DNA of 64,000 nt. Origin: Trypanosoma brucei. Taxonomy: Eukaryota. Shown in pieces: positions 9,157 to 58,339 of this stretch (position 1 is the stretch's first letter; each line of letters opens with the position of its first letter). The notes below the pieces were generated by a model. It searched no databases and was not told the origin of the DNA. It saw nothing but the letters and a program-made list of their open reading frames with translations. The position numbers and the translations under genes are program-made. The DNA lies in the NCBI GenBank assembly GCA_000002445.1, contig CM000208.1:1216001-1280000 (forward strand), in the 5' to 3' direction.

Positions 9157-10497
9157 CTAGTTGATATCTGTTTTGTTCCGCTTCCTTATGTATGAATCGA
9201 GCTCGCCTTTAATGGAACGGAACCCGCACTCGTAATCTTGTCCCTCAAGGCGGTACAGTCGAAGTTGTTCTTCAGCTTCTTCGTACAGCGCCTTTATGCG
9301 TGTCAGCTCCCTTCTTACCACCTTCAGTTCAATATTGTTGGAGTGTTCTTCCTCGGACAACCCCACATAATTTGAGATACCGCGGTTCCAGCAACTTTGC
9401 ATGTTTTCGACGTACGCATCGATCTCCCGCAATGTGGGGACCGCAGAAAGTCCCTGAGGTGATGCCTTGTTAGACCCCAGACGAGGAAGTGACTCCCGTT
9501 TTATCAACAATGGGGGCTCACACTCCTCAATCTTCCTCCAGTAATTTTCATCTATTTGTGACTCAACGGCACCTGGTTCCTCTGTAGTGACGCTCACCTT
9601 CCCCTTCCACCCCCTCCTGGTTGGTTTAGGAAGCCTCTTTTTCGGTTCAAAAGGAGCTAATATGTGTTGAGTTACTGGGTCAAAAAAACTATTAACCCAG
9701 TCCATTTGGGGAAACATTGACATAAACTGACCAATTAACTGAGAAGTTGTTAAAATAACTCCCTCGTCTGACTTACTAAAGGGCATAGTCCCCTGGCATT
9801 TGTTTTCCATGTGAACGACTGCTACAGCTGATTTTCGAGGTGTTTCTGTCGTAAATACAGGAAAAATAAGGAGACTTGAAGTGACACGCGATGAATCAAC
9901 CGTATACTGATTAAGGGCAATCCCGCTACCCAAAACTTCCGCGTCCACAGAGCCTAGGCATCTGTGATGAACCAACTGGGGGGGAAATGCAAGCCTGGCC
10001 GCGCAGTTTGCTATGGAAATCATCTCATCATCTTTGCGAATAAATATATGAGATGAGGATGCTTTCGAAATTCTTGTCGCGCCTTCAAGGATATTATACA
10101 ACGTAGCAGCTATGTACTTTGATACCTCCTTCGATATTTGAAGAGGTCCGCCAGGTACCTTCTCCCTTGGAATGCGATACGCCGTTACACTTGAAGGTTT
10201 GGTAATTACAACCTTCTTCCCTTCGTTAGAACGACGTTGCCCGGGTGTTTGCCTTCCCTCGTTAACTAGCTCAGGTAACCCGTCAGCGCGTTTGGGTCGT
10301 TCCTTCTCCGTGATATCACCAGTCATAGTCCGACCACTCTCCCGTAATGCCGATTCTATCGGCCCTATAGCGTCACGGATTCTATCAGGTAGCGGTCCCA
10401 CTTGGTGATGAAATTCCGGGCGTGTCCTTGCAAAGGTATCAAGCATTTCAGCTATTAGTTTCAGTTCATCAATCTGTTCACGATGAGGAAAGGCCAT
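9157..10497 (-). CDS. Hypothetical protein with a central GAF-like region (about 447 aa)
   Basis: A long minus-strand ORF. The track start (10617, ATG, MSDSNCYCRCRYIYV...) runs through TA-repeat and poly-A sequence. The likely start is the second ATG at 10495-10497 (MAFPHREQIDELK...). No strong family signature was recognised; the central segment is GAF-like (weak). Confidence 0.5.
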   Translation of the reverse strand: MAFPHREQIDELKLIAEMLDTFARTRPEFHHQVGPLPDRIRDAIGPIESALRESGRTMTGDITEKERPKRADGLPELVNEGRQTPGQRRSNEGKKVVITKPSSVTAYRIPREKVPGGPLQISKEVSKYIAATLYNILEGATRISKASSSHIFIRKDDEMISIANCAARLAFPPQLVHHRCLGSVDAEVLGSGIALNQYTVDSSRVTSSLLIFPVFTTETPRKSAVAVVHMENKCQGTMPFSKSDEGVILTTSQLIGQFMSMFPQMDWVNSFFDPVTQHILAPFEPKKRLPKPTRRGWKGKVSVTTEEPGAVESQIDENYWRKIEECEPPLLIKRESLPRLGSNKASPQGLSAVPTLREIDAYVENMQSCWNRGISNYVGLSEEEHSNNIELKVVRRELTRIKALYEEAEEQLRLYRLEGQDYECGFRSIKGELDSYIRKRNKTDIN

Positions 10498-10698
10498 CCT
10501 TTTTTTTTTGTCCTCAGTTAGTAAATACGACCTAGTTACTTTCGATATCGTAGCAAATAAAAAACGTATATGTACGTATATATAGCGGCAACGACAATAG
10601 CAATTAGAATCGCTCATTGGAACGGCAACGACAGACCCTGTATAAAGATGATAATTTTCATCGTATACACAAATTCAACGTACATTTAAAAAAAATGA

Positions 10699-11968: not shown

Positions 11969-13381
11969 TTAATCATCATCTGAAAAATTCTGCAGCTCGT
12001 GGAACCTACCTAGTGCCCTTGACCAAGTTGTGGACTGATTTCTATCGCAAAGTTTTGACGTAAAGCCAACAAAAACAGACTGATCTTCCCTCGACACCGC
12101 AGTCATCGGCTGCTTTTGGATGTCTGCATTGTCGGGTGCAGGCTCAAAATATTGCAAGTCTCTCGGGCTATTCAGCTCCACAGAAAAAGGGGCCTTCTCA
12201 TTTCGGATACTGTCGGTCAGAGGGACACCCTTACAGAATGGGTGGCGGATTATTTCCTCAAACCCGTATCGCTCTTTTGAATCGGCAATAAGGTGAGAAA
12301 TCAAATCAATTGCTTCCTTTGACACCGTCGTTTGATCCTTCGGAAACTCCAAGTGCTCTTTGAACTGTATTATCTTCTTAGCGGTTGCGGTGTTATTATC
12401 GTTGAAAAATGGAGGATATCCAAATATCATTTCATATAGAATAACACCAGCGCTCCACCAGTCACAGGAATAGTCATATCCCCTTCCAATTAGAACCTCA
12501 GGTGCAATGTAGGCGGGTGAGCCGACAGTAGAAAAGAACATGACCTTTCTTTCCTTTTTATCCCTGAAGCGTTTCTTTACGTCATCATCAACGGTTACAT
12601 CCTCCGTTAAATAGCTATCGTCGGCTACGGATGTACTTTCAGCCTGATCCGGATCTCTCTTAGACAACCCAAAATCTGCTAATTTAACATGGCCCTCCCG
12701 ATCAATAAGGACATTATCCGGCTTCACATCCCTGTGAACATAGCCCATCTTGTGCAGCGCATTCAGTGCTAAAACCAACTCAACGAAATAAAATCTTGCC
12801 GTTTCTTCCGGGAAGACATCGTAACGGATGAGCCAAGAAATAAGATCCCCTCCGGAGCAGTACTCTGTTACTATATAAAGGAAGTCTTGATCTTGGAATG
12901 CTACCACCAAATCCGTAATCCATGGACAACTTACTCGCTTCTGCCGTAGTTTTGCGTCAGAAAGAAGATCTCTCTCTGTGTGTACATTAAGTGATTGCTT
13001 CCTTTTCACAATTAGATCCTTTCGTATCTTTTTCATGGCATAGACAATGTGAGGTTCTTCCGGTCTCCAACACTGAAACACCTCCGCGAATGCACCCCTC
13101 CCAATTGCGTCCCCAACACAGAACTCGTTCACTGTGTGCTTCTTCTGTCTACCTCGGGAATGTTCAATAGCAAAACTTTTCTTGTCCCCCACCATTCCTT
13201 TAACGTAGTACTCACCTGTATACTTTTTGGCAACGGCAACCTTTGCGTCAGTGCCAACTTGAGATTTAGGCACATCTGACATCTTGCCTGTTTTTTCTCC
13301 CCCACCAAAGAGCTTGAGGCTCAAAACAGTAGTAACAGTACAAGGCGAATAGAAAAGATGTTCAATAATTAGCAAACACAT
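11969..13381 (-). CDS. PK50: NDR-family AGC serine/threonine kinase (PK50-like)
   Basis: Kinase subdomains GRGAFAEV, AMKKIRK, HRDVKPDN, DFG, then a long insert before GSPAYIAPEV, which is the NDR/LATS-type activation-segment insertion. The ATG at 13379-13381 gives 470 aa; an alternative ATG at 13280-13282 (MSDVPKSQ) gives about 438 aa, roughly 50 kDa. The symbol is from memory of the T. brucei NDR kinases PK50/PK53 and is not verified. Confidence 0.8.
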   Translation of the reverse strand: MCLLIIEHLFYSPCTVTTVLSLKLFGGGEKTGKMSDVPKSQVGTDAKVAVAKKYTGEYYVKGMVGDKKSFAIEHSRGRQKKHTVNEFCVGDAIGRGAFAEVFQCWRPEEPHIVYAMKKIRKDLIVKRKQSLNVHTERDLLSDAKLRQKRVSCPWITDLVVAFQDQDFLYIVTEYCSGGDLISWLIRYDVFPEETARFYFVELVLALNALHKMGYVHRDVKPDNVLIDREGHVKLADFGLSKRDPDQAESTSVADDSYLTEDVTVDDDVKKRFRDKKERKVMFFSTVGSPAYIAPEVLIGRGYDYSCDWWSAGVILYEMIFGYPPFFNDNNTATAKKIIQFKEHLEFPKDQTTVSKEAIDLISHLIADSKERYGFEEIIRHPFCKGVPLTDSIRNEKAPFSVELNSPRDLQYFEPAPDNADIQKQPMTAVSREDQSVFVGFTSKLCDRNQSTTWSRALGRFHELQNFSDDD

Positions 13382-13536: not shown

Positions 13537-13932
13537 TCATAGGAGTAGCTTTTTCTTTCGATGCTCTAGTTTTGTAGGCTTCATACGTGTTCTTTTTGGC
13601 CATTTATTCTCGCCGCCCTTCGAGGCTTTTAAGCTGCTTTTCAACTGTTTTTGGATAGACAAATTCTTCCAGTCCAGGAACGGTGCCCTCTTCAGATCCG
13701 ATGGAAGGTGCACAAGTCGTACACTTGATCCCTTTAAGAAAACACGACCCTCTACAGAAAGCGAAGAGTCTCGGTGCTGGCACCGCACATCAATAAGTTC
13801 TATGTCCCCACATATTGCATCAAGTTGCATCAGCTTGCCATCATAAACACTGCCATCAGTAGTTTCCACCTTGACGAGGAATCCGGTCGCCTCACAAATG
13901 GCACGTAAGGGAATATCAGCTACACCTTCCAT
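13537..13932 (-). CDS. Sm-like (Sm/LSm fold) protein with basic C-terminal tail
   Basis: Sm1 motif FLVKVETTDGSVYDGKLMQLDAICGDIELIDV and Sm2 motif GRVFLKGSSVRLVHLP. The C-terminal K/R-rich tail resembles SmD-type proteins. The track start (13980) is GTG; the first ATG is at 13930-13932 (MEGVADIPL...), giving about 131 aa. It could correspond to one of the trypanosome U2-specific Sm variants (Sm15K/Sm16.5K-type), but this is unverified. Confidence 0.6.
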   Translation of the reverse strand: MEGVADIPLRAICEATGFLVKVETTDGSVYDGKLMQLDAICGDIELIDVRCQHRDSSLSVEGRVFLKGSSVRLVHLPSDLKRAPFLDWKNLSIQKQLKSSLKASKGGENKWPKRTRMKPTKLEHRKKKLLL

Positions 13933-13980
13933 ATCCCTAATAACGACTACCTCAACGATCAACTTGCCTATTTCTCCCAC

Positions 13981-16900
13981 AATTTTGACAATTTGAAAAA
14001 AGTGCTAGTGGCGACCAAATCATGCAAAAAATCGACTTTCTTTACGTCTTATTACAAATTAATGCACTCACACACGGTGCTCCCGAACACAAAAAAGTTC
14101 AGGGCAAGCCAGAGAGGGAAAAGAGGCGTACGAAAACCACCAAGTGCTATGAAACATAGATGCCAAAAACAAAACCCTATCGCACAACACCACCTTCGTG
14201 GAGTGTCATCGCGGTCCACGCGAGTCCGGGGCCTCCGTGTCGCGCTGCGAGCAGCAACGACATATGGGTGAAGTATGCCCACGCACAATCGTCCTGAAGA
14301 ATAAAGAAAAACTGCTCCATAAGCCTGTTTACAGACACACTTCACAAAGACATAAACAGTAGGATGTCACTGGAATCAACAGACAACTAGGAACAAGGTT
14401 GCAAAAAAAAAGTCCATTTGATTGCTTCTCACATCAAACATTACATACATACACATGCTATACCGCTCTATACCACCTTACGAATCAACATATGGGTGGA
14501 ACCCCCGCACAAAGCGCGTCCTGCACAACAAATCCCCACGACCAATAGCAACCAGAAAATGAGCAAAAGCGGTTACGGCGGCGCCCGCCGCGATGTGCTG
14601 GAAACAGAAGTAAAAGAAAGATGGAGAAAATTCCACAACAACGATCTCCCACATCGGGACGCTGCTCCGCGCTGCAGCATAAGAAAGGGGCTCCTCTCAA
14701 TTTCCATGCTCACACGAGGGGCTGCTAATGACGGGAAGGCTACGAAGATGGTGAAGTAGCCACAGGGGTCCCCCGTCCGCTTCGGATCCGACGATCGTCT
14801 GTCGTACCCCATCGCCTGTGAACAAAATGTCCCAAACCGAAGAAACCCCAGCTCTCTCCGGCGCTCTAGCCCCAGCCTCGCTACGGTTTTTTGGCCCGCG
14901 CCACCGGCAACCACCAGCAAAGAACGGGGAGGAGCACACCCACGAACTCTGGTGCCCCAAGGCACCGAAGCGTAGTGCGACAAACCGTTAGGAAAGAGTT
15001 GTCACGGACAAAAACGAAAAGAAGAGGAGAAAACCCATGGGGTGCCACTCACACCCATACCGCTAACGCCTGGCACCCGCTTAGGTGAATCAGAGGCAAA
15101 GAACCACCTCTCCACCCGTACCTGAAACCCTTGAAGCAACCACTGCCACTTCGGCCTCTGCAGCGATATCCTCGAGCGCTTTGTTTACATGGGACAGACC
15201 GCTGAGCGTAGGTAGGGAGTAAAGTGACTCAATCACAGTGCTTTTGAGCCTGCCGCAAAAGCGCAGATTTTTCACTTTCTTCAAAAGACACCACGGCCAG
15301 CGGTGCCGGCCACCGACCCACTACAAGCATAGTGGTTGCTAAACATGGGGTGGTTTTGCCACCACCGCCACCATACGGATCGGTAACTAGTTCCCGCCGG
15401 CCGCTACTTGTGGCAGTAGCCAGTTGACGGGGATAGGGCGGTAGTGATGTATGTTGACCTTTTGCCACGGCTCGATCCTCCGTCCCACCGATGCGCCGGC
15501 ACCTCCATCAGTACGCTGAACGCGGAGCACTACAAGCTGCGTTAACAACCGGATGAGTTTCCCATTTCGGAAAGTAAGATTTCGCCGATCGGAAGGTTGA
15601 TCATCCCCTTGGTTTTTGCGACTTAATGAGCATGTTGGACGCTCACGATTTGGAAGTCAGTTGTGGGTGCTGCAGCGGAGGCCCTGGAGGGACACGAAAT
15701 CGCGCATTGCATTTCGATAAACGCAGTGCACCATTATAAAAGCGATTATTCACGTTCGGTGGGGAGTCTTCATCACACTTTACTGTGCCGCAAATGATGC
15801 ACCACGGTAAATTCGGGGCGAAATCAAAAGGTACCAGCATACGGTTCCACTGAAGATACAATCCTGAGACTGTAGTATTCAGGAGGGACCCAGCAATATT
15901 TGCAGTGAGAGAAGAACTGACCTATTGGCCCACCGAGACGTCCACCAACACGATTCTGTCCTCCTCATGCGTTACCATGTGAATGCGCGCACTTCCCTCC
16001 CCCCATACACACACCACCCCAGAACTGATGCATGTCTGGTATATCTCGAACAACTTTACACCCCGCTAACGCGTGGCTCCGTTCAACTTCTTTGAAGTGT
16101 GATTTTGCGAAGGCACCCCCACCCCTAATCCAAACTACAACTTTTTACAATCATCTCTCGGTGTCTAAAAGCTCGTTATTCGCTGCAAAGCGTTGGTTAA
16201 GCACAAAATTGTATACGCCTACGGACTACATAGTACCCGAGTTCAAAGAGAACCATCGACAGCTACCGCAGCGTTCCCACTATTCAGCACAACGGGGCAC
16301 TTCCGAAGTACTGTAGGTAACGGCCGATAGTCTGTGGAATTATACACTTTACACAAACAGGGCATATAATTATGCGGTGATTTCCCTAGTGTTCGATGCT
16401 ATTCAAGATGTGAGAATGCATTTCCTACGGTGACTAAAAGTGTGTTATATCGACATAGTTTTCCCCCGCACATACTAATAATATACTATGCGGTGTTATG
16501 TGCACAATATGGGAGGTGTGGCTACTGTATATGTTATTTGTTAACTCTTCCTTCGGATGAAACACTACAGTGTCACACCTCTCCTTCTCACATCATATGT
16601 ATGTGCTTCACCTCACATTATTACTCCATACCATCGTGTTCTAATGGGAAAAATAATGCGGAATGATAGATTAGGTGAAAAAAGAAAAGATCAGAAAGGC
16701 ATGACTATCTCTCTCTATGGTGTGTGGTATACGCTGTTGATGCTTTGAAAGTTCTGCATCATCACGTGATATCGTATATCCACATGCTGTGTGCATGTAT
16801 TCGTGTGATGCATGCTTGGAACAATGGAGAGTGTGACCATGTCAGTTTGTGTTCACCACCGTGCTCTTCATCTGTAGGAGTAGGTAAAACTAACAACAGA

Positions 16901-19566
16901 TCATCAATATTTCAACGAAGGGAAGACAGGGTCGGTTTTAATATGCGGCCGCCGAGTATCGGAGCAACGGTGGAGCCCCAACGTATCCGTAGTGTTCAAC
17001 CCCCTCCGTTGCGGTCTCCGCGTCCCCGCTCCTCATTGTTCGGCCGCTTTTGAAGACGCCACGTTGAGACTGGAACCTGTGTCTTGCCGCTTTTGCTGGA
17101 AAGAGGAAGGAAGATCACTGTGGCCACTAACAGTGGAGGGTCGGGTGTCGTGAGATGTGTCTATCTTCCGTTGGGGTTTTCTTCTTGGGAAAGCGGTTTA
17201 CCTTAGTGGGCGGCGGTAACCTGTTCTATTTGGAAGGATGTCGTGCAGGGGGTGAGTGAGTTTTCTTGACCAAGTTTACGAATTTGTTGTGCACCCCTGT
17301 TTTATCCCACTGCTTGAAGTGTTTCGGAATAGATGATAGGGAGGATGGTATGGCAAGAAACCTGCCGGGACCTTTACCGTTTCACCGCTGACTACATGTT
17401 CCCACAATTTTCTACCATATCCTTCGGGCGGCATTGCAGTGAGAGTGCCATGTGGGACAGGGGACAGATTGGAACTTGATCTTCCGGAGGTCTTCGGAGT
17501 TATAGAGTGATTGCTTCTCTTCTCCTTTCCTTTGGCGTGACTCTCATACGGAGGCTCTTGGTGAGCAGGATACAATTCGCCTGCTGACTTTTTGGTTTAT
17601 TTTTTCCCATATTTCAGTGTTGCGGGGTCACTTTCGGCACCGTTGGGAATCGAGAAGTGACGTATAAAGGTGTTCGCTTCTGCAGCAAAAAGTGGTTCCG
17701 TTTGGTATTCATTTGTGGAGACACTTTCCCTCCTTTCCATTTCGGAAAACTTTTTGTCACGGAAGAAGGGCTTTTGGTATTGTCCCGTCCGATGATCTTT
17801 GCCCCGATCGTTCCATCATGAATAATAGCTACAACTGTGTGTGTCTGTACGGCTGTGGATATTTCCCCAGTCCCCAATCGCTTCGGTCGCTTTTACTCTT
17901 TTATAGCACGGTTTAGAGTTGGTAAACTGGTGCCGTTCTGTGGAAGCAGTGGCCGGAGGAAAGTGTGGGGTGAAGTCGTTAGCTCGTTTGAGTTGACGCA
18001 GGCCTTGGAGAATGTCATGTGGTGACCTCCGTGGGCTGTGGCCGTGTCGCCAATTTGTGGCGGCGCAGTCCTTTGATGTGACTGAATCGGGTGCATAACT
18101 TGTTCTCCGGCCATGCTCACGGTTTTTTTTGTTTTCGCTGCCGCTTCAGCCGTCTTCTCCCCAGCAGATTATGAAATATGGTCCGGCGCGTGGGGGAAAT
18201 GAGTTGGTTCCACCCAAGAACGTTGGAGCCAGAGGCCTATGCTGCCTTTTCCCGTGTGTATTTGTGAAGGGGGGGGGGACGAGGCTCAGAGGAGCGGCAT
18301 GTCCATTTTTTGTGAATCCTCTTTGTCCACTGGGGAAGGAGATTGAAGTCAGGGTTGCCTGGGGGGATGACTCAATGCGCGCCGTCGGATGAGCAAACTT
18401 ATGTTTAGCGGCCCTTGTGGTGATTGCGTCAACCGGTGGGTCGACGGTAGTGGTGAGCTCAACTTCTGTTTTTGAGTTGCCGGAGCTCCGCCGCTGTGCC
18501 GGCAAAGGGGAAGGTTGGTACTGGTTAGCCCTCAGGGTACAGAGTTTGGTCTCAAATACACTGAAGGCGCCCCCTACTCGGCAGCCGCGCCTCTGAGCGC
18601 TGTTCGCCCGGATGAGTTGGTTCGTAGATGCTGCACTGGGCGCTGTGTAAAGCTCGTGGGGGGTTGGAATGGATGTGATAATCGCGTAGCAGTTTAGTGA
18701 GGATGGCGTCGACGGCGACGCCCTTTCGCATCCCTGAAGTCTTTAATATGTCTGTTCTTGTTCGACGAGGGGTTTGCTGCGGATCCCACCAAGAGTTGGT
18801 CTCGCAGTATTTTGGCCGCGGCTCTGCCCACGCTGGGTGAATTGCGCTTTGCCTGGTTTCCCCCGCCAGAGCGGGGTACAGTGGCCGGGCTGCGCGTGTG
18901 GGGTGCCGTCATTGCTGAGTGTGTCGGTGTTGTGCCCGCCCCGTTCCTGTTGCGTTAAGCAGGATTGGGCCCGGTGGGGGTTTGGTGACTCCAACCGAAG
19001 CGTCGGCATGTGGATGCGCCCCATCGTTTCTGGTGGCTGACATGTTTGGTTTCGTCGTATTGGGCCCAGGGTTATAGTGGGCGACAGGGTCTGGCTTGCG
19101 TAACCCGTCGCTTTTTCTTGTTGGCAGTTGGTGCCTTTTATTCGACGGTGGTGGCGTTTTCTGGAAATCGGTCCCCGTTCTGGGGTTCTGTCGTTGAAGG
19201 ACTCCTTGTACTTACCATATTATGATATGCATTTTGTTTGCCACCGTATGGCTTCGTTTTCTGTTTGCGTCCCTAACAGAGCAGGTGGTATCGTGGATAC
19301 CGGCGGTGCGAGGGGTTGTGCATGTTATGGCGGGCTTTGCACGACGAGCCTTGAATCCACCTTTTTTAATTATTTCAGTTCGGATTGCAGGTGATGTGCT
19401 TGCCCACACCCTGCAATTTGTTTAAAGTTTAATGGCAGTGCCGATGCCATTTTTGTCTTGGCGTATGCTAGGCGCGTGAGTTGTAGATGTCTAAGAAAAT
19501 AGTGTTGATATAGCCCTCTGTTTTTTGTTTAAGTGGTGATGTTATTGTTTTTCTTTAATCTTCCTG
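13981..19566. promoter_or_regulatory. Divergent strand-switch region (bidirectional pol II transcription start region) with no protein-coding genes
   Basis: Genes to the left are all on the minus strand and genes to the right all on the plus strand. The 5.6 kb between them contains only short, compositionally driven ORFs. The plus strand is CA-rich at 14.0-16.0 kb (so the minus strand is GT-rich) and GT-rich at 17.0-19.5 kb, with a G10 run at 18269-18278. This outward-pointing GT skew matches the GT-rich promoter elements described at trypanosome transcription start regions. Confidence 0.6.
18269..18278 (+). repeat. G10 homopolymer tract inside the strand-switch region
   Basis: The sequence aagggggggggggacgagg, read directly. 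Confidence 0.8.
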
Positions 19567-19593
19567 GTGTTGTTTAGTGCAAAGCTAGGTGCA

Positions 19594-20205
19594 ATGGAGG
19601 ATATGGGCGACTTGGCGAAGGGCAACTTGGCTTCGTCCAAGTGGCTTGGCACTTTCAGCCTCCTTTATGCCGAAGTGGTTGTTTCGTTTGCGAGTGCCAT
19701 AGTTCTACTTGTTTTGACTGTTGTCCAGTTACTTTATCGAACCAGCTGGCGGGCCAGGAAGTTATGGAGAGTAGGAAACGAGGTGCGCTTCGATGGGGAG
19801 CGTTACCTCGCGAAACCGGAGGGCGACATTGGTCGGAAAATTTTGGAAAGGGGCATAAAATCGCATGAAAATGTTTACTTTGAGCGTCCCTCAGGCACAC
19901 TTCCCCCAATTGTAGCGAATGACTGTGACGCTAGGGTAAATTGTCTCTCTATGATTGCGGAGACAAGGAAGATACTCTACAAGCAGTACGGGGAACCGGC
20001 GCGTTTAATGTCTATGCGTTGTTGTTTGTCGTGTATAGAAAATGTTTTGCCGTCGAGCCAAGCGGAGGATTTCCTTCGCATATATGAGTCTGTCCTTTAC
20101 GGGCAGTATCGCGCGGATGGGGTTCCGGAGGTGATTTCTGACGAAGAGATAAAGTTTTTGCACGTTTTTTACCACAATTCAATTCTCAAAGAGATTCAAT
20201 GGTAG
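19594..20205 (+). CDS. Hypothetical protein with single N-terminal transmembrane segment (about 203 aa); first gene of the plus-strand array
   Basis: The track ORF 19567 starts at GTG; the first ATG gives MEDMGDLAKGNLASSKWLGTFSLLYAEVVVSFASAIVLLVLTVVQLLY (one hydrophobic helix). No family was recognised. Note a possible 1-nt coordinate offset in my local reading here; the frame follows the ORF track. Confidence 0.45.
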   Translation: MEDMGDLAKGNLASSKWLGTFSLLYAEVVVSFASAIVLLVLTVVQLLYRTSWRARKLWRVGNEVRFDGERYLAKPEGDIGRKILERGIKSHENVYFERPSGTLPPIVANDCDARVNCLSMIAETRKILYKQYGEPARLMSMRCCLSCIENVLPSSQAEDFLRIYESVLYGQYRADGVPEVISDEEIKFLHVFYHNSILKEIQW

Positions 20206-23760: not shown

Positions 23761-24023
23761 TTAGCGATTAGCGGTGCATTGATGTTCACTTGTTGCCGCG
23801 TTTCGATTTTTTTTTTGTGTGGGTATGCAGGCATACATATAATTATTGCTTACGCTGTCAATGTACATCCATCTACGTGGAGGTTCATCATCAGGGAGGG
23901 ATTGCCCAGTAAAAATATATTTATGTATCTGTTTTGGCTGATTTTACTCGCTTTTTCTTTAGCTTCCAGGTTGATTTTGTCTATATACCTATTTTACTGT
24001 GCCTTTTCAATCCGTAGTCTGAG

Positions 24024-26264: not shown

Positions 26265-28501
26265 GTGCCTGATCTGTGGCGTTAATCACGACGAAAATAA
26301 TAACAAATTATTCGTTTGTTAATCATTAGCTAGGGCAACGTCTTTTTTTTTTTTCAAAGCACGAAGTCGCGTGTTTACAGAGTTTTTTTTAGGTGGTAAA
26401 GGAACTGGACCTAATCTAATATACTGTCGTGGGGAGGCTGTTTTCTCCTCTGACAAAGTTCGGCGCTAAAGACGGTCTCTCTTACCCTCCTTCACACATC
26501 ATGGAAGGAAGTCTACATCGGCTCTGTAATGATTTTGGGTTTGAGCAAGTAAGCCTAGTTTTTCATTTTTTTATCTTCGTAAAGCTACAGCTTCTCTGTA
26601 ACCATTTGCTTCCTTCTATTGTGTCGCGTCGTGTACGTTCTGTTTTGCCCTTACTCTTATGACCGGTATCGTGTGAGATGTCTGTATTCGTGTCGAGGTT
26701 TCTGTGCATGTGTGTTAGATAGCGGTGCCATCTTTCTTTAGTAGTTATCACCGTAGATAATGTGTCTGGTATCGTTGAAAGTCCTCAGTAAATCTCCACA
26801 TCTAGTGGAGAGGAACTACTGATATTGTTCGCACCGCAATTTCTTTTGGGAGGGGTGTCCTCCATCGCAGGTTTTGGAGGAGATGGTTCCCCGCTTGCTA
26901 CACCCCTTGCGGATGTGGGCGAACTGACAATGCCAGATACACCCACCTCAGTGGGGCGACGCCCGGTTGTCGTTATGGTTTCCCCCTCTCACACTCGGTT
27001 GCTGCTGGGGTTTGAAGGCAATCTTGCAACAGGGTGTGCGCTTATTTACGTTTCTTGCGAGGGGAAGTTTGAGTCTGACAGGAAGCTCACCCGGTGGTTC
27101 TCACAGGGACGAGGTGCAAGTTCATTTGTGGAGGGAAAATAGCCTTGGTTTCGCGTAGATGGGCTATGCATTGGCTGGGAGTACACTCTCGATACCGTTT
27201 GTACTTTACCGACGCTACTTGGGCGGCTCTCCCATCCCTTGTGTAGTGTCATTTATTCGCGGCACTGCGGAATGGATATTAGTTTGGCATGCTTTCACAT
27301 ATCAGGGGTGACAACGGGAGTATCGCTTCGGTTTAACGTGGTGACCTCTCCGCTGACCCTATGATGGTACTCGATGCGGTTTGGCGAAAGGCGCGGCACA
27401 CCAACAGGTGCGGCAGTCTGTGAAAAAACGCTATTTTTTTTGATCACCGTAGTAAGCTTGTGATACATTAAGATGGAGTTTCAGGGGAGGTTTTTGCTGG
27501 GGTAAAGGTTTTTCTTATGGTGAAACATTTTCTCTCGGGTTGGCTTCAAATTCGTAGTTCTCCAACTACTGTTCGGTGGTTTACAAAATTGTTTTACAGG
27601 AATGCGGGTACATTGTTCACTTGTCGTAAAAAAAAAAAAAAACTGTCGTGCTTGCTGGTTGCATCGGGGATTTGTGCCTTGATTCTCTTCAGAGCGGTTG
27701 AGTGCGAGCATGAGCACGGAGACCTATGCCACCAAAACGTATGCATACAGGCGACATGTTGATAGTCCTCTGAGAAATCAAAGTTAGCAACACTTACCAC
27801 GGAGTAGGTGTAAAAAGAATAATAGCAGATGGACGCGGTTGCCATTTGCATTTTCGTTCAACGTCTGCAAATAGCAGTTAACAATAAGCTTCTTTTTTTT
27901 TTTCACTTTCCAGGTTCAAAATAGCCCCTTGAATTGCATGCTCCTGCAGCTTGAAGTTCCCGTGTATTTTCTGAGGGCGAGACATTTATAACGTAAAAGT
28001 GGTATTATTTTCAGATACATCGCCTCTTTCCCTCTATCTCTCTCTCTCTCTGGCGGACGTTTATTTTTGTTTTATACACACCTCCAGTGGTAATTTGTTT
28101 TTCTTGTATTCTCTGCGTGCTGAGGTTCCACTTTGTTCCATTCCATGTTATAGAGTAGTGTGAACTCAAATGTGTGAGGGAAATAAGAGCTGTCTGATTA
28201 TCTTCTGTGTGTGTGTTTGTGTGTTTGTGTTTGTTCGGGAAGTTCACGTGCAGAAGTTTATGTGTTACATTATTTTAATATTACCTCCTTGGGTATCGGC
28301 ACCTCAACCTCGGCATGTGCCTCGTGTGTTGTGTTGCATCTGTTATACTTTGCTGTTGTTGCCCCGTCGGATATACGTAATCTCTTCTTCTTTCGGTGTG
28401 ATGGATTTGAACTTGGTTAAGTAAGAAACGACAATTGGGAGAAATAGTTGTGACTGACGGAAACCCTGGCAGGACAGGGAACAAGGGACATTCTTCAGTA
28501 A

Positions 28502-29113
<612 letters not shown>

Positions 29114-50932: not shown

Positions 50933-53408
50933 TTTGGAAAACCTGGAGTGTCCCTCTTATTCCACTTCCTTGCGTTTGTGTTTGTTTTGTGGACTTTGTT
51001 GTCTTTTCCGTTTTTGTTTATCTGTCTTTTTTTGTTTTTTTTTTTTACCCATCGTCCCATCATTTCTTTTCGTTTTTTCCCCCTTCCTTTCAGCTCCCTT
51101 TGCCCACGTTCGATTTATTTTCATACCTTTCCCCTTCGTTTTTTGTTTTTTCCTGCTTTTTTTTTAAAAAATATTGTGCCACCTTTTTCCCCCTTTTTTG
51201 TTTGTTTTATTCCGTTGCCGTGAGATGACATTAGTCTTTTACTGTTTTTGTTTTTGTTGTTTCCTCCTTCTTTTTTGCTGATGGCATTACGACTGTGCGC
51301 GGGAGAGAGAAGAGAAAAAAAATGGTAAAGGAGAATGTGACTGATATGTGAGGGGTGTTGAGGTAATTTATTGTTTTTTTTTTAAATAACTATTCTCCTG
51401 TTTCGTCTTATCCCCCACCAAACTCTGCTAAAGTCCTAAAATAGCTGGCGGGTTTGAGATGTGAATAAATTTTGTTTCCTTTTCACCTCCCTTTCTGCAG
51501 CTTTTTTGTCTTTTCAAGTTCCTTTTTTTTTCTTGCTTTCTTTTCCTTTTTTTTCCCCCTTTTCTTGTGCAACTGTGGTGGATGTTTGTTTTATTTGCCT
51601 GTGCGATTTGTGCGCCACTGATTGGGATGGAAAAAAAAAAAAAGGAAAAGAAAGAAAGGCAAGAGGGCGGCGGTGGTGAAAAGGAACGGAATTTGGATGC
51701 GCGTGCTTGTGTGTGTGTGAGAGAGAAAGAAAGAAAGAAAAGAGAAAGGTCATAGTAATGGTGACATCAATAATAATAATAATAATAGTAACAATAAATA
51801 TTATAATCGTAATCATAATCATGGTAATAATGGCAACGACACTAACGGAAGGGGGAAGGGAAAGGGAAAGGGAAAGGGAAAGAGAGAGAGAGAAAAAAAA
51901 AGGCAATACTATACAATTTGGTATGATATTTAATATGTGGTGTTAAGGGAGGGTGTCTTTTTTTTTCTTTTTCTCTAAGTATGTGTGTTGGGAGAGAATA
52001 TCTGAGGCTCCAGTTTTATACATCAATTAGTTTGGAAGTGTGAAATAATCGGGATGGGTAATTTTTCTTTTTTTTCTTTTTTTTTCTTTTATTGCTTGAT
52101 GCAGGAGACGAAATGCGGTGTGTGTGTAGGGGGGGGGGTCATTTTTTTTTCCCCCTTCCGTTTTCTCTTCTCTTCTCTTTTTTTTTAAATCTTGAATGAG
52201 CCGTTGTGCCGCATGTTTTGTGTTTGGTTTCCTCATTTCCATTTGAAGGACTGGGGCCGCTTTTTGTTCATTTTTTTCATTTTTTCATTTTTTCATTTTT
52301 TCATTTTTTCATTTTTTTTATTTTTCTTTTTTTTTTTTTTCATTTTTTCATTTTTTCCTTTTTTTTTTATTTTTCTCATTTTCTGGTCTTCATTTGAGGT
52401 ATGTGCGCCTCCCTTTTTTTTTTGTTTTTTTTTTTTGAACATGAGAGTTAACTGACGGATTGAAGACAAAAGACGCCAAACATTACAAGAGGGGAAGGGA
52501 AATGAATACGAGGGAGAAAGCGAAAAAGATTAAAAAAAAAAAAAGTCATTATCATCAGCAGTTGCGATGGAAAAAAAAAGGAGTGAAAAGGAAAAAAAAA
52601 AGACGAAAGCAAAAGAAGAAACCAAAAAAATAAATAAATAAATAGATAAAATGAGTAAATAAATATAAATATAAATGTGCGCGTGTATGTCAAGGGCAGA
52701 GAAAGGTGAATGCACAAAAGCTGATGTGCGCACCATGTTCTGTGATGGGGACGGAGGCTTAGATTGTATAAGTGCAAATGTATGTATGTTTTTCTTTTTT
52801 TCTCTTTTTTTCTTTTTTTACCTGGCCATGTTTCTTTGTTTTCATTTTTGGGACAATAAGCAAAAAAGTATACATATATTTATATGTGTGAAAGGTACAC
52901 AAGCAAAGAAAGAAAGAAAGAAAAATAAAAAGAAAAAAAAATATATATATATGTACACGTGTGTCTTTGTGTGTGATCCGTTGTCGAGGGGTTGTGGCCG
53001 CCTCTTGGAGCGGTTGCTTTTTTTTTTTTCTCTCTTCTTCTTTGAATTAACAAAATTTTCCGTACTTATATATTTAGAGCCCTCGTCTCGCTCAGTTTAT
53101 ATATGCCCAATTAGTGTGTCCATTGGGGGATATATTTGCTTGTGAGTTACTTAATTATACTTTTGTTTTTTGCAAAAAAAAAAACAACAATAACGGCAAC
53201 AGCTAACAAACGAAAAAGGAGATGAATGAACTGATAGGGGAGGAGCAGAAGGGAGCATCTTTTAGTTCTTTATGCCGTCAAACCCCAAATTTTATTTGTG
53301 TATTTTTTCTTTTTTCCATTTTGTTGTTTCTTTTTCTGAGATTTTTTAAAAATTAAAAATGATCGTGATAGGCGGAGGAAGGGTAAAACATAAATACATT
53401 TACATGCA

Positions 53409-53440
<32 letters not shown>

Positions 53441-56400
53441 TATATGCATATAATTGTATACATATGTGCCCACCTCCCCTTCCCTCCCCTCCCCCCAAAA
53501 TAAAAATAAAAATAAAATAAAATCATCCCTATCACACTTTTTTTTCTTTTTCTTTTTCTCACTTTCCTTTCTTTACGGGCTCCTCTATTCGGCATGCTTT
53601 CCTCTTATTTTCACCAATTAAGGGGAAGATGGAGGGGAGTGGTGGGGCTTGTTTTATTATTATTATTATTTTGGCAATTTGCTTTCATTCAATTTCATTT
53701 TATTTGCAGTTTCTTCTTTTTTCCCCCTTGTGTGTGTGTGTGTGTCTTATCGTTATTATTATCATTATTATTATTATTATAAATATTCCGGTTCTTTTCC
53801 TATTTATTCCGGCGCGTTACATATATATATATGTTTTGTGTCCTTTTACATTGATGTTCATGTTTTTTATTTTCCTTTTCTTTTCTTTTTTGCCACTGTG
53901 ATGATGACCGATGGCGCCAGTAATTATTATTATTATTATTATTTTTACCACTAGCGCTACCACCATAATTATTTTTGATATTATTCTTGATGTGTTTCAC
54001 GAAGGAGGAGAAATAAAACGAAAAATTTGTTTTTTTTTCTTTTAAGAGAGGTAAAAGGTAAGCGAATATAATTATATAATAGGAAGTGTACATCACAAAT
54101 GAAGGTTTAGAGTTGAGGAGTGCGTGTGGTGACGGCAAAAAAGAAAAAAAAGAAATAAATGCAAAATCCAAAATGTCACATAAAGTAAGGTAAAGAGATA
54201 AGGTAAGAAGTGAAATGGAAAAAAAAAAGAAGAAAAGAAACCAATGGACCGTGGGCTACACGCAAAGCGACAGTGGAGTTGCAGTGCAGGGAAACGGAGT
54301 GGGAATGAGAAATGTGTCTACTTTATTTTTATTTTTATTTTTCGTCTTTTCTCAATTTAAAAGACAAAAAAGAAAAGAAATATTTTTATTTTGTTCTTTT
54401 TATTATCTTACCTTACCTCACTTTTTCTTTTTGTTTCCTCTTTATCCTTAATGACAGTTTATCGTATCCTTTACGTTTCCCGCTCCAGAGCCAAATCCTT
54501 AAATCCCTTTTCCTTTATATGTTTATTTATATATTTATTGTTTTTTTTATATGTTTTCTCCCCTTTGCTTCAACACTTAGAAGGTATGATGTGCGAGGAT
54601 GTTGGTGTGGTGTAAAACGAAATCAAAAAAAATATAATAATAATAAATGAAAAAAATGAAGAAAAAATAAAAGATGAAAAACTGGTGGAGTTGTACAATA
54701 GAAATAAATAAAAAAAAATATATATATATATAAGCGGGTTATAGTTGTCTTCATACGTTGTCTTGTATATCCGCTCTTTATACGTTTACTATTTTTATTT
54801 TCATTTTTTTCTTTCGTTTTCAATGAATGAGCACATTTATATATATATATATATATATATAGATATATATTTCTATTTATATACACACAAACAGTCATGC
54901 AGTTATACACTTATGTCTTATATACTCTCTTTCACACACCATAAATTATATACACATGTCACATTTTTTTTCATTTTTTTTTTTGAACTGGAGATCTCTC
55001 TTATTGATTTCATTATATACTTCTCATTTTTTTTCTTTTTAGTGGTGTTATGCTGATGTTTGTGCTTGTGTATTTGTATTATTGTGCCCGTGATTTTCTT
55101 TATTATTAACATTATTAATAGTAATAATATTAATATTATAATATTATTATTATTTGATTTTATTCGGATTTATACTCTCCTCCTTTTTCTTTCTTTTCTC
55201 TTTTGTTATATGAAAAAAAAAATAACAAGAAAAAAGTTGTTTTTCGTCAACTGCTTGAAGCAACCACCACAACAACGGCAAATGTTTTATTGTTGTTGAA
55301 GTCGGAAATATTTTTCCGTAACCCTATCGTATATGATGTTGTAGAGATTTAGGTGCCAACTTTTTTTTTTTAAATTTAATTATTTATTTAATTAATTGTT
55401 TATTCTCCTCCTACTTTCACTTTTCTTTAATTTTGTTGTGATGCAAATTTTGGAAAGTAGATTTCTGTTGGGACAGAAAGAAGAAAAGTGATAGAAAGAC
55501 ACGAGAAAATAAAAATAAAAGAAAATAAAAAGAGACTTCAAAAAGGCAAGAAAAAAAAAGAGAAAAAAAGAAAGAGAAAAAGAAGAAAAGTAGAGAGAAA
55601 CAAGAAACATGAAAGATATGTTGAATGGTACCGTTTGTTTTTTTTTTTTGCCGCGGTGGCATTTCAAATATATCTTTTTTTTTCAATTTTTCAAAACTTT
55701 AATAGAGAGAAGCAAAAAATGAAAGAAAATCAAAAGAAATGAAAGAAAATAAAAGAGAACAAAAACGGAAGGGAATTGGACAAGTTGTTACGAAGTTGCG
55801 CTGAAAAAAAAAACCCATAGGAGAACATTTGCGGGGTGATTCTTTTTGTTTTTTTCTAGAGAGAAAATGTTTTTTTTTCTGGTATGATCGTAATAGTAAT
55901 AATATTGACAATAATAATAATAATTGTTTTTTTTGTTATTGTGTATTTACTTTTGAGTTTATTACTGCTGCAATTAAAAAAAAAAAAACACCACCAACAA
56001 CAACAACAACAACACACACACACAGGAAGGGAGAGGAGGGATGAGAAGAAAAAGGGAGAAAGAAAAGAAAAGAAACCGTTATGAGGTAAGACCTCGGATT
56101 TACCAAGCGTTTTTTTTTCTTGTTTGCTTGCTTGCTTGCTTAATCAATTAATCAAATTTTTATTTTGCTTTGTTTTATTCCACGCGTTTGCTACGATTTT
56201 TTTCTTTTTTTTCTTTTATTGTCATCATTTGTCATGATGATTCTTACTATTAATATTCTGTTGAACCCACATCCTTCCTCTATTCCATTATCTTATATTC
56301 CTCTCTCTTATGTTATGTTATGTTTCTTTTTTTTTTTTACTTTGCTCAACTTTAATTCGCAAACAAAAAAAGAATGAGGGGGGGGGAAAAAAAAAAATAC

Positions 56401-58339
56401 TCCCCTACTGGTCGTTATTTCTCTCATCTCGGTCGCACAACGCTAATGGTTTAGAGGCCGATTTGAATGAATGAATGAGGTGAAATCATTTTGCTTTTTT
56501 TTTCTTTTCGTTTTCGATTTCGATTTTGTTTTTTTTATTCATTTAAATTTATATACCCACGTGCGTTTACGCACGATTATACTGACGAGGATTTGTTGTC
56601 GTGTTATATAACCCTTCTTTTTTTTTTCGTGTGTGTGTTACCTCTAGTATTATTATTATTATTCCTGTCATTCCCATTATTATTATTATTGTTGTTATTA
56701 TTATTATTATTTCAAAATTCATGGGATGTGAGACAGTCGGTAGCACTAAATTTCAATATTTGCTTACTTTTATTTTATGTTTATGTTTAACTTTTTGTTT
56801 TTTTAAAAATTTGATAGGGATGTGGTTAAGTTGGTGGTGTGGGGCATCGATTAAATGAAATATGTTGTTGCTTTGTAGATGCTCTGCTCCTTCTACCTTT
56901 CACCTTCCCTTTTCTTTTCTTTTTTCTTTTTTCTTTTTACTATTATTATTATTATTTGGTTGGTTTCACTGTGCGTGTTATTACTTTAAGGTTTTTTTTT
57001 CCTTTTGTCACTGTAATTAAATTCTTGTTAAACAGTTGGGCTACTTAATATTCTTTTCTTTTTTTTTTCTCTCCAACCAAAAAAAGAAAAAAAAACGTTA
57101 TAAATGGCTACAGAAATGGAAGAAGAGGTGTTAGTTGTGCTTTTGTTTTGTAATGTAAGCAACTCCCCCTCCCCCACCTTTCAAAAAAGAAAAAAAAGAA
57201 AAGAAAAAAATATATACAAAAGGGACCGCGTGTTTGTGTTTTTGTGTCTCTTTTTTTTTCTTTTTTTTCTTTTTTGAAAGGTGGGGGAGGGGGAAGGGGG
57301 CGGGGCGGGGAAGGGAAGGGAAATTGAAAATTAAGATGAGGCAAAAGAAGACACTTTTTTTTTTAAAAAATTTCTCGTGTTTAACTTTATAGTTTCTGTT
57401 TGTCATTTGCATGCAGTTGCACATTAATAAATGTATAAATACACACCAATATGCATACGAATGTGAATATCATCTTCATTTCTCTTTTTTCCTTTTCTTT
57501 TCTCTATCTATCTTTTGTTTTTTTTATTTCAAAAAAAAAAAAAAACTACCTTCATTAGTTTGCGTAGAGGACGTGTGTGGCTTACTACCGTCTTCATCGC
57601 CGTACAGGTCAGGCGCACAACGGAAAGAAATTTGAGGTTCGTTACTTTTTTGCTCTTTTTTTTTTTAAAAAAAAAAAGATATTGGTTATATTTGGATAGG
57701 GCGAATATCACAAACTATTTTCGTTTTTGGTTTGCTTTGCTTGAGAAGAACGCACACATTTATTTATATAAATACATATAAATAAATAAAAAAAGGAACG
57801 AAAGAAAGAGTGAAGGAGTAGTGGGAAGGACAGGAGTAAGAAGACGATATATATATATACACGCACACAAAAAACAAAAGCAAAAGCAAAAGAAAAAAAA
57901 GAAAGAAAAAAAAGAAAGAAAGAAACAAGGAAGGGAAATTAGACACTCTCTTCCCCCCAAGGGGTACCCGCTTCATAGATATTATAAAGGAGCGAGAAAC
58001 CAAAGGTTGGAAGTGAAAGAAAGAGGAGGAGGAGTAAAAGGGGAGGGGGAAAAAAAAGAAAGAAAGCGAAGAATACAATCAAACAAACAAAACAAGGCTG
58101 GGAGAAAGTGAAAAATAGCCCGTAATCGTACGACTTACAATATTTGTTCCAGAGGCTCGCACATCTCCACTCCTCGTCCGCTTTGTTGAGTGACAAGGGA
58201 AGGTTAACAAAAACATACCGCTTCAAAAGGAGGGGAGGGAAGGGAAAAGAAAAGGCGACAATATTTAATTTTCCTTCAGAAGGGAGGACACCGTGTCCGG
58301 TAGCGCAGGCCTCTTTTTTTTTTTTTCTCCAAATTTTGT
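50933..58339. repeat. 7.4 kb ORF-free, extreme low-complexity tract (poly-T/poly-A blocks, (AT)n, (ATT)n, (CAA)n, (GAAAGG)n, (CATTTTTT)n, G/C homopolymers); candidate very long 3'UTR of the CCCH gene
   Basis: There is no ORF beyond translations of simple repeats (FFFFF, YYYYY, LLLLL, KKKK). Examples read directly: (CATTTTTT)5 52268-52313; (AT)13 53411-53436; (GT)9 53728-53745; (ATT)n 53640-53670 and 53915-53945; (CAA)6 56000-56020; (ATT)n 56651-56715; (GGGAAA)n 51841-51875. Confidence 0.75.
57164..57294. repeat. Perfect 35-bp inverted repeat (extendable to about 44 bp with one G-U) separated by about 60 nt: hairpin/cruciform element
   Basis: Left arm 57164-57198 tccccctcccccacctttcaaaaaagaaaaaaaag; right arm 57260-57294 cttttttttcttttttgaaaggtgggggaggggga, which is its exact reverse complement (verified base by base). 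The right arm runs into a G-quadruplex-prone tract ggtgggggagggggaagggggcggggcggggaagggaaggg (57280-57320). Confidence 0.85.

What the first reader, a model, noticed from the sequence alone, without database searches (positions are those of the whole stretch)
13981..19566. Gene-free divergent strand-switch region with outward-pointing GT skew: candidate bidirectional pol II start site
All genes left of about 13.9 kb are on the minus strand and all genes right of about 19.6 kb are on the plus strand. The 5.6 kb between them has no credible ORF. The plus strand is CA-rich from 14-16 kb (so the minus, sense-for-the-left-array, strand is GT-rich) and GT-rich from 17-19.5 kb, with a G10 run at 18269. 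This mirrors the GT-rich promoter elements reported at trypanosome transcription start regions, which direct H2A.Z deposition. The exact skew switch point (about 16.3-16.9 kb) coincides with a compositionally odd TA/CATATG-rich core.
Basis: partly seen in the sequence, partly recalled or inferred. Interest (0 to 1): 0.5.

Follow-up and report, generated by a model that had tools for sequence, protein, structure and literature searches.

The report
Known trypanosome divergent transcription start region
This 5.7-kb gene-free gap is the divergent strand-switch region on Trypanosoma brucei chromosome 10 where two long gene arrays start in opposite directions; it was already listed as a putative RNA polymerase II start region in 2010, so it is an ordinary example of a known feature.

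Summary
The window is T. brucei TREU927 chromosome 10, v4 coordinates 1,216,001-1,280,000; several gene coordinates match exactly. All real genes left of 13932 are on the minus strand and all right of 19594 are on the plus strand. The 5661 bp between them show no coding signal, tRNA, Rfam hit, repeat or homologue. The cumulative (G+T)-(C+A) curve reaches its minimum for the whole window at 16359.

The anatomy has three parts:
- a left arm (13.7-15.1 kb), GT-rich on the minus strand;
- a skew-neutral centre of 1.9 kb (15.1-17.1 kb);
- a right arm (17.1-19.8 kb), GT-rich on the plus strand, carrying G10 at 18269.

Kolev et al. 2010 (Table S14) list this gene pair as the first genes of two "Divergent" putative Pol II transcription units.

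Corrections:
- The skew is only slightly stronger than in ordinary intergenic DNA inside the arrays, so it does not identify a promoter by itself.
- The arms stand out by high GC and high sequence complexity.
- CATATG occurs once in the core.
- The one annotated ORF in the gap has no detectable transcript.

The strand switch is conserved across Trypanosoma but is about 13 times longer here than in T. cruzi. Verdict: already known, low interest.

The parts
13537..13932 (-). First gene of the leftward polycistronic unit: the U2-specific Sm protein SSm2.2 / U2-16.5K (Tb10.70.2250 = Tb927.10.4950), 131 aa
   Evidence: LSM domain. Orthologues are named 'small nuclear ribonucleoprotein' in T. congolense and T. 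vivax. Computed mass is 14743 Da against 14732 Da listed for Tb927.10.4950. The poly(A) site plus 3'UTR of Tb10.70.2250 places the stop codon at window 13537. It is the first ORF of a 'Divergent' minus-strand unit in Kolev Table S14.
13933..15140 (-). Left skewed arm: non-coding, GT-rich on the minus (sense) strand, GC-rich (0.556 at 14501-15300). Inferred to be the transcribed 5' leader and dispersed start region of the leftward unit.
   Evidence: Segment mean GT skew is -0.22 on the plus strand. Sense-strand skew is 0.19-0.22. Seven Wedel 10-mers lie on the minus strand and none on the plus. Divergence from another strain is 1.7-1.9%, like other intergenic DNA, against 0.7-1.0% in CDS.
14573..14812 (-). 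Annotated but unsupported ORF Tb10.70.2240 (79 aa, 'hypothetical protein'); by numbering it is probably Tb927.10.4960
   Evidence: Coordinates 1230573-1230812 match exactly. It appears in Kolev Table S2, 'annotated ORFs not producing a detectable transcript'. No Pfam hit for the enclosing frame, no period-3 signal, and 4 of 4 substitutions against contig L007 change the amino acid.
15141..17080 (.). Skew-neutral centre between the two arms. Inferred to be the gap, or zone of overlap, between the two outward-facing start regions.
   Evidence: Mean GT skew is -0.02. Absolute skew is lower than in the arms (p=0.0008). The cumulative-skew minimum of the whole window lies at 16359.
15992..16021 (-). 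G-run / GT-repeat element on the minus strand (TGGGGTGGTGTGTGTATGGGGGGAGGGAAG); a second one lies at 16114-16125. A candidate 5'-most GT-rich element of the leftward start region.
   Evidence: C6 run at 15999-16004, CA-only stretches at 16007-21 and 16114-25. Wedel 10-mers TGGTGTGTGT and TGTGTGTATG lie on the minus strand at 16007 and 16004.
16301..16900 (.). AT-richer core with many TA, TG and CA steps; function unknown
   Evidence: GC 0.40, TA observed/expected 0.98 (96th percentile), TG observed/expected 1.53. Purine/pyrimidine alternation 0.575 against 0.472 +/- 0.044. Only one CATATG.
17081..19593 (+). Right skewed arm: non-coding, GT-rich on the plus (sense) strand, GC-rich (0.572 at 17901-19100; 18001-19000 is the GC-richest 1-kb window of the 64 kb). 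Inferred start region and 5' leader of the rightward unit.
   Evidence: Segment mean GT skew +0.23. Eight Wedel 10-mers lie on the plus strand and none on the minus at 18-20 kb. All G runs of 5 or more in the gap lie here on the plus strand. GC by 1-kb window.
18269..18278 (+). G10 run on the sense strand of the rightward unit
   Evidence: GGGGGGGGGG is the most strand-biased 10-mer in the first fifth of T. brucei start regions (132 coding against 17 non-coding; Wedel Dataset EV1).
19594..20205 (+). First gene of the rightward polycistronic unit: conserved 203-aa hypothetical protein (Tb10.70.2230; by numbering Tb927.10.4970)
   Evidence: Orthologues at 61-73% identity across Trypanosoma. It is the first ORF of a 'Divergent' plus-strand unit in Kolev Table S14.

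Best explanation
The interval is the divergent strand-switch region of T. brucei chromosome 10 between SSm2.2 (Tb927.10.4950) and the 203-aa gene Tb10.70.2230. It most likely holds two outward-facing dispersed RNA polymerase II start regions.

Proposed mechanism. Pol II starts at many sites in each arm, mainly in the direction whose sense strand is G/T-rich. It transcribes the non-coding arm as a leader. That leader is discarded when the first gene is trans-spliced, after which Pol II continues down the gene array. The 1.9-kb centre with no skew separates the two start regions.

What is shown here: gene orientation, absence of genes, the skew anatomy, sense-strand placement of the published GT-rich 10-mers, the identity of the locus, and its published listing as a divergent Pol II unit pair.

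What is inferred from published work on this class: H2A.Z/H2B.V chromatin, the exact start sites, and the role of the centre.
For: - Locus identity. Five or more gene coordinates from Kolev 2010 match window ORF ends with a constant offset of 1,216,000.
- Published listing. Kolev Table S14 lists both flanking genes as first ORFs of 'Divergent' putative Pol II units. The text says 5'-triphosphate reads were enriched at every divergent unit.
- Gene order. Five genes on each side are collinear with T. cruzi, T. theileri and T. melophagium, and the switch falls between the same two genes.
- Skew. The flip is the global minimum of the cumulative curve. The orthologous switch regions of three other species show the same outward flip despite having no sequence similarity.
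- 10-mers. All 15 Wedel 10-mers counted at 14-16 kb and 18-20 kb are on the sense strand, including G10.
- No gene or RNA family in the gap.
- Published model. Wedel 2017 shows that T. brucei start regions act as dispersed, orientation-dependent promoters. They show a 4:1 sense bias, with initiation at the 5' end of H2A.Z domains, and a non-transcribed gap lies between divergent units.
Against: - No chromatin or nascent-RNA data for this locus could be read here, so start sites and H2A.Z limits are inferred.
- The skew and the Wedel 10-mers are no denser here than in ordinary intergenic DNA inside the arrays, so they do not prove promoter function.
- The left arm has no long G run (longest is G6 on the minus strand, at 15999-16004).
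- The 75-bp sequence-specific promoter reported by Cordon-Obras et al. 2022 could not be tested because the paper is not held.
Confidence: 0.9

Rival explanations
1. The region is where transcription starts, but the GT skew is a passive footprint rather than a promoter signal. It would come from transcription- or replication-coupled mutation bias, plus the T-rich, polypyrimidine make-up of all transcribed non-coding RNA. The flip would then only mark where the sense strand changes.
For: - Sense-strand G>C skew runs through nearly all CDS of both arrays (mean 0.094).
- T>A skew runs through nearly all intergenic regions inside the arrays (mean 0.177).
- Intergenic regions at 39-40.5, 46-48.5 and 51.5-52.5 kb reach a GT skew of 0.23-0.27, equal to the arms.
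- Wedel 10-mers are 3-4 times denser there.
- The arm diverges between strains at the intergenic rate.
Against: - Synthetic GT-rich sequences built from such 10-mers drove orientation-dependent transcription and H2A.Z deposition in T. brucei (Wedel 2017).
- The arms have a more uniform and slightly higher skew than other intergenic DNA (0.224 +/- 0.049 against 0.144 +/- 0.136, p=0.028) together with much higher GC (0.52 against 0.395, p=3.6e-6). They are therefore a distinct compositional class.
Confidence: 0.35
2. The skew inflection and the odd AT-richer core mark a replication origin. Leading- and lagging-strand asymmetry would diverge from an ORC1/CDC6-bound site in the centre, with transcription co-oriented with the forks.
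For: - Published statements say ORC1/CDC6 binds all T. brucei strand-switch regions and that about 45 of them fire as origins (Briggs 2018, citing Tiengwe 2012).
- The centre is AT-richer and rich in flexible TA, TG and CA steps.
Against: - No origin coordinates for chromosome 10 could be retrieved.
- Only a minority of switch regions are active origins.
- The skew is concentrated in non-coding DNA and drops to about 0.04 in CDS within a few hundred bases of each first gene. That pattern fits transcript composition better than fork polarity.
Confidence: 0.1
3. The extra 5 kb, relative to other trypanosomes, is a decayed gene, a retroelement relic or an unannotated non-coding RNA gene. The skew would then be inherited from that element.
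For: - The orthologous gap is only 438 bp in T. cruzi and 1.4-1.5 kb in T. theileri and T. melophagium, so DNA was gained in the T. brucei lineage or lost in the others.
- There is a 357-codon frame with a single stop on the minus strand at 18149-19219.
- GeneDB v4 annotated an ORF at 14573-14812.
Against: - No period-3 signal.
- No Pfam hit in the 10 longest frames.
- No homologue of the 198-aa frame among 1.84 billion representatives.
- No translated similarity to the other species' gaps.
- No copy elsewhere in the window.
- No internal or tandem repeats.
- No Rfam match.
- Long open frames are expected on a strand depleted in T and G.
- Kolev 2010 lists no novel transcript there and no transcript for the annotated ORF.
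Confidence: 0.04

Closest known systems
T. brucei divergent transcription start regions (dTSRs) at strand-switch regions (Siegel 2009; Kolev 2010; Wedel 2017)
   Same: Two long gene arrays diverge from a gene-free gap of several kb. The sense strand is rich in G and T, with a G10 run. There is no conserved motif. This locus is itself listed among the divergent units in Kolev Table S14. Its 5.7-kb size fits the '5-10 kb' quoted for T. brucei divergent switch regions.
   Different: Nothing different was found. H2A.Z/H2B.V occupancy and start sites at this locus were not checked here. The left arm lacks a long G run.
Orthologous divergent strand-switch regions in T. cruzi, T. theileri and T. melophagium
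   Same: The same two first genes, the same neighbouring genes, the same outward GT-skew flip and a GC-rich block of 0.54-0.65.
   Different: They are 438 bp, 1497 bp and 1412 bp long, against 5661 bp here. There is no detectable DNA or translated similarity. In T. cruzi the gap falls in the '<750 bp' class, which carries a single H3K4me3 peak. In T. cruzi the H2B.V domains extend over the first genes.
Synthetic GT-rich promoters GT_210 and GT_416 of Wedel et al. 2017
   Same: G/T-rich on the sense strand and dependent on orientation.
   Different: The synthetic elements are dense concatenations of the most biased 10-mers. The natural arms here carry only 7-8 such 10-mers per 2 kb, fewer than ordinary UTR-rich DNA downstream.
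Dispersed CpG-island-type Pol II promoters of metazoans
   Same: Broad initiation zone, elevated GC, no TATA-type core motif, H2A.Z chromatin (an analogy drawn by Wedel 2017).
   Different: CpG observed/expected in the arms (0.87-0.95) equals the window median of 0.92. Initiation in T. brucei is reported as strand-biased 4:1 rather than symmetric.

Membership tests
Trypanosomatid divergent strand-switch region / Pol II transcription start region | Two polycistronic gene arrays pointing away from each other, with no gene between them | tested here: met
   ORFs, Pfam and synteny. No coding signal, homologue, tRNA or Rfam match in 13933-19593.
Trypanosomatid divergent strand-switch region / Pol II transcription start region | Experimentally mapped as a Pol II initiation region (5'-triphosphate RNA) | tested here: met
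   Checked by looking up the published table. The locus is identified by exact coordinates. Both first genes are listed as 'Divergent' putative Pol II units in Kolev 2010 Table S14. The text states enrichment at every divergent unit. Read-level data for this locus were not seen.
Trypanosomatid divergent strand-switch region / Pol II transcription start region | Enrichment of H2A.Z, H2B.V, H4K10ac, H3K4me3 and BDF3 | not testable with these tools
   No ChIP-seq data are accessible. No table of start-region coordinates is present in the Wedel supplements.
GT-rich dispersed promoter (Wedel et al. 2017) | Strand-asymmetric G/T-rich 10-mers on the coding strand, strongest at the 5' end of the start region; G10 is the top 10-mer | tested here: met
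   14-16 kb: 0 plus / 7 minus. 18-20 kb: 8 plus / 0 minus. G10 at 18269 on the plus strand. Caveat: density is below that of ordinary intergenic DNA at 46-52 kb (29-36 per 2 kb), so the feature is met but does not discriminate.
GT-rich dispersed promoter (Wedel et al. 2017) | Orientation-dependent reporter activity and H2A.Z deposition | not testable with these tools
   This needs an experiment. The locus is not one of the two regions tested in that paper (regA and regB primers are absent from the window).
Sequence-specific 75-bp Pol II promoter (Cordon-Obras et al. 2022) | Match to the reported promoter element | not tested
   The paper is not held. Only second-hand descriptions were available.
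Replication origin at a strand-switch region | ORC1/CDC6 binding and an MFA-seq peak | not testable with these tools
   No coordinates in the held supplements of Tiengwe 2012.
Protein-coding gene, pseudogene or retroelement relic inside the gap | Coding periodicity, a family or homologue match, or repetition elsewhere | tested here: not met
   Consensus sequences of T. brucei retroelements were not available for a direct comparison.

The most novel reading that the evidence does not exclude
The 13-fold expansion of an ancient strand-switch region in the T. brucei lineage may not be neutral filler. The two GC-rich, high-complexity, uniformly skewed arms could be lineage-specific 'landing pads' that set the width of the H2A.Z domains outside the genes. 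In T. cruzi these domains lie over the first genes. The AT-richer core at 16.3-16.9 kb, rich in TA, TG and CA steps, could be a discrete boundary or ORC-binding element that keeps the two start regions apart.
Probability: 0.12. Interest if true: 0.45.

Novelty: already known. Interest (0 to 1): 0.12.

Why it matters
The finding matters little as a discovery. The class has been known since 2009-2010, and this locus appears in a published table of divergent Pol II transcription units.

It is still a clean worked example of two points. First, the skew flip can be located from sequence alone, to within a few hundred bases. Second, the skew by itself does not separate promoter DNA from any other transcribed non-coding DNA in this genome.

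Two by-products may interest specialists if they hold genome-wide. The arms combine CDS-like GC content with UTR-like skew and contain no low-complexity repeats. And the same ancient strand switch is 438 bp in T. cruzi but 5.7 kb in T. brucei.

Tried and rejected
- **Inverted duplication as the source of the mirrored skew.** No long inverted repeat joins the arms, and no self-similarity appears with sensitive blastn.
- **Hidden gene or pseudogene.** Rejected on period-3 signal, Pfam, a search of 1.84 billion representatives, and translated comparison with four other species. The striking frame of 357 codons with one stop (18149-19219, minus) is explained by depletion of T and G on that strand, and its translation looks non-coding.
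- **ncRNA.** ARAGORN and Rfam at gathering threshold and at E<=1 found nothing.
- **Phylogenetic footprinting.** There is no DNA similarity to the T. cruzi, T. theileri, T. melophagium or T. vivax gaps. Even T. theileri against T. melophagium keeps only the gene-proximal edges. T. congolense DNA could not be retrieved. The T. brucei-group contigs are too close to be informative, at 98.4-99.7% identity.
- **CpG-island character.** CpG observed/expected is not elevated.
- **Canonical G-quadruplex motifs.** Only one lies in the gap (19062, plus strand).
- **CATATG enrichment.** Not present.
- **The pair ACATATGGGTG...CGTCCTG at 14259 and 14487.** An 11-mer plus a 7-mer is within chance for 5.7 kb.
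- **The 75-bp promoter of Cordon-Obras 2022.** The paper is not held.
- **Origin coordinates** and **a table of start-region coordinates in Wedel 2017**: not available.

Full report
**What the window is.** The first plus-strand gene right of the gap (19594-20205) is 100% identical to a T. equiperdum protein and 61-73% identical to orthologues across Trypanosoma. Coordinates in the supplements of Kolev et al. 2010 (PMC2936537) match window ORFs with a constant offset of 1,216,000:
- Tb10.70.2260 (serine/threonine kinase) at 1229381..1227969 equals ORF 13381..11969.
- Tb10.70.2280 at 1226617..1225157 equals 10617..9157.
- Poly(A) site plus 3'UTR length puts the stop codon of Tb10.70.2250 at 13537, of Tb10.70.2220 at 21321 and of Tb10.70.2190 at 26264. 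All three are exact ORF ends.

The window is therefore T. brucei TREU927 chromosome 10, v4 coordinates 1,216,001-1,280,000. Current names follow from the literature. PK50 is Tb927.10.4940 and CRK3 is Tb927.10.4990. SSm2.2/U2-16.5K is Tb927.10.4950, listed at 14,732 Da. The 131-aa Sm-like protein at 13537-13932 computes to 14,743 Da average mass.

**Checking the observation.** Genes with Pfam or orthologue support are all on the minus strand left of 13932 and all on the plus strand right of 19594. Opposite-strand ORFs of 150 aa or more overlap these genes, which suggests they are not real. The gap is 5661 bp (13933-19593).

Evidence that the gap is gene-free:
- It has no three-base periodicity (0.5-2.5, against 3-6 in neighbouring CDS).
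- The ten longest open frames have no Pfam match.
- The longest frame has no homologue among 1.84 billion representative proteins.
- There is no tRNA and no Rfam match at gathering score or at E<=1.
- There are no tandem repeats, no internal repeats and no copy elsewhere in the window.

GeneDB v4 did annotate one ORF there, Tb10.70.2240 (window 14573-14812, minus strand, 79 aa). Kolev's Table S2 lists it among annotated ORFs with no detectable transcript. All four substitutions against a related strain change the amino acid. 'No credible ORF' therefore stands.

**The skew.** The cumulative (G+T)-(C+A) curve reaches its minimum for the whole 64-kb window at 16359. The best single change point in 13-21 kb is 16361, with means of -0.12 and +0.15. 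A five-segment fit gives a clearer anatomy:
- 13721-15140: -0.22
- 15141-17080: -0.02
- 17081-19800: +0.23
- about +0.04 beyond 19800, inside the genes

The flip is real and highly significant. It is best described as two skewed arms around a 1.9-kb neutral centre, not as a point. G10 is at 18269-18278.

The core at 16301-16900 is unusual in composition. GC is 0.40. TA observed/expected is 0.98 against 0.70 for the window. TG observed/expected is 1.53. Purine/pyrimidine alternation is 0.575 against 0.472 +/- 0.044. CATATG occurs once there and is not enriched in the window.

**How special the skew is.** In 300-bp windows, sense-strand GT skew is 0.224 +/- 0.049 in the arms, 0.144 +/- 0.136 in intergenic DNA inside the arrays, and 0.036 in CDS. 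The arms are only modestly above ordinary intergenic DNA (p=0.028). Several internal intergenic stretches reach 0.23-0.27.

I scored the 157 strand-biased 10-mers of Wedel et al. 2017 (Dataset EV1). Their placement is perfect for direction: 0 plus / 7 minus at 14-16 kb, and 8 plus / 0 minus at 18-20 kb. Their density is lower than in UTR-rich DNA at 46-52 kb, which carries 29-36 per 2 kb.

What separates the arms from other non-coding DNA is GC content (0.52 against 0.395, p=3.6e-6) and the complete absence of low-complexity arrays. The blocks at 14.5-15.5 kb and 17.9-19.1 kb reach 0.57. CpG observed/expected is ordinary. The skew is thus a property of the sense strand of transcribed non-coding DNA in general. 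Its flip marks the strand switch, and it does not by itself identify a promoter.

**Comparative evidence.** The switch lies between the same two genes in T. cruzi, T. theileri and T. melophagium, with five collinear genes on each side. The gap is 438 bp in T. cruzi, 1497 bp in T. theileri and 1412 bp in T. melophagium. Each shows the same outward GT flip and a GC-rich block. None has DNA or translated similarity to the T. brucei gap. T. vivax contigs end inside the gap, and T. congolense DNA was not retrievable. Against a related T. brucei-group strain, the left arm diverges by 1.7-1.9%. That is the rate of other intergenic DNA and about twice the rate of CDS. The position and the composition are conserved. 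The sequence is not. This fits a dispersed promoter without a motif.

**What it is.** Kolev et al. [quoted passage not shown] These are the two genes flanking this gap. The paper states that 5'-triphosphate reads were enriched at every divergent unit, in sense and antisense. Its list of novel transcripts has none in the gap.

Wedel et al. 2017 show that T. brucei start regions behave as dispersed, orientation-dependent promoters with a 4:1 sense bias. Initiation occurs at the 5' end of each H2A.Z domain. GT-rich elements can drive transcription and H2A.Z deposition. The DNA between two divergent units is not transcribed.

The most likely mechanism follows. There are two outward-facing start regions in the arms. 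Leaders are transcribed through the arms and discarded at the first trans-splice site. The neutral centre separates the two regions. H2A.Z occupancy, the exact start sites and the role of the centre are inferred, not shown.

**Rivals.**
- The skew may be a passive footprint of transcription rather than a signal. This is compatible with the region being a start region and is favoured by the similar skew elsewhere. It is disfavoured by the reporter results of Wedel 2017.
- An origin-driven asymmetry cannot be excluded, because ORC1/CDC6 is reported at all strand-switch regions. No locus data were available, and the skew collapses inside CDS.
- A decayed gene or mobile element as the source of the extra 5 kb found no support in any test.

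**Verdict.** The feature is an already catalogued, typical member of a well-known class, so interest is low. The residual open points are why this ancient switch region is about 13 times longer in T. brucei than in T. cruzi, and whether the AT-richer core has a function.

Noticed in passing
window 26265-28513: A 2.2-kb ORF-poor gap lies between mitochondrial-type EF-G and the eIF4E-like gene. T. cruzi, T. theileri and T. melophagium carry a CAP-Gly/CRAL-TRIO gene at this position (L002 17284-18471), but tblastn finds no trace of it in the window. Kolev 2010's novel transcript Tb10.NT.51 maps to window 26678-28271 on the plus strand.
   Followed up: partly
window 53146-58339 (and 51.5-53 kb): A 5.2-kb stretch has no ORF of 150 aa or more. 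GC is 0.25-0.31 and the stretch is dense in low-complexity arrays, including a T-rich 8-mer array at 52262-52382. G-quadruplex-type motifs lie at 57283-57303 and 51851-51858. Kolev Table S14 places this inside the plus-strand unit, so it is probably long UTRs and not a unit boundary.
   Followed up: no
window 11969-13381 (-): The PK50 (NDR kinase) ORF is longer than the likely CDS. The T. cruzi orthologue aligns only from 13282. Kolev Table S1 places the splice acceptor inside the annotated ORF, at 1229326 = window 13326.
   Followed up: partly
window 17894; L004 1-819; L005 1-497: Short-read assemblies break inside this strand-switch region. The T. equiperdum contig L001 starts at window 17894. 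The two T. vivax contigs stop 819 bp and 497 bp upstream of the first genes.
   Followed up: no
window 23761-24023: This 263-bp intergenic stretch differs at 21 positions (8%) from T. equiperdum, while the neighbouring genes and spacers are identical. It is likely a hypervariable or indel-rich spacer.
   Followed up: no
L006 8875-9780 (+): The T. melophagium annotation places a 195-aa gene call inside its 1.4-kb strand-switch region. It has no similarity to the T. brucei gap, and T. theileri has no such call.
   Followed up: partly
window 18149-19219 (-): A frame of 357 codons with a single stop lies antisense to the right arm. It has no homologue and no coding periodicity. It illustrates how strand skew creates long spurious ORFs on the CA-rich strand.
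   Followed up: yes
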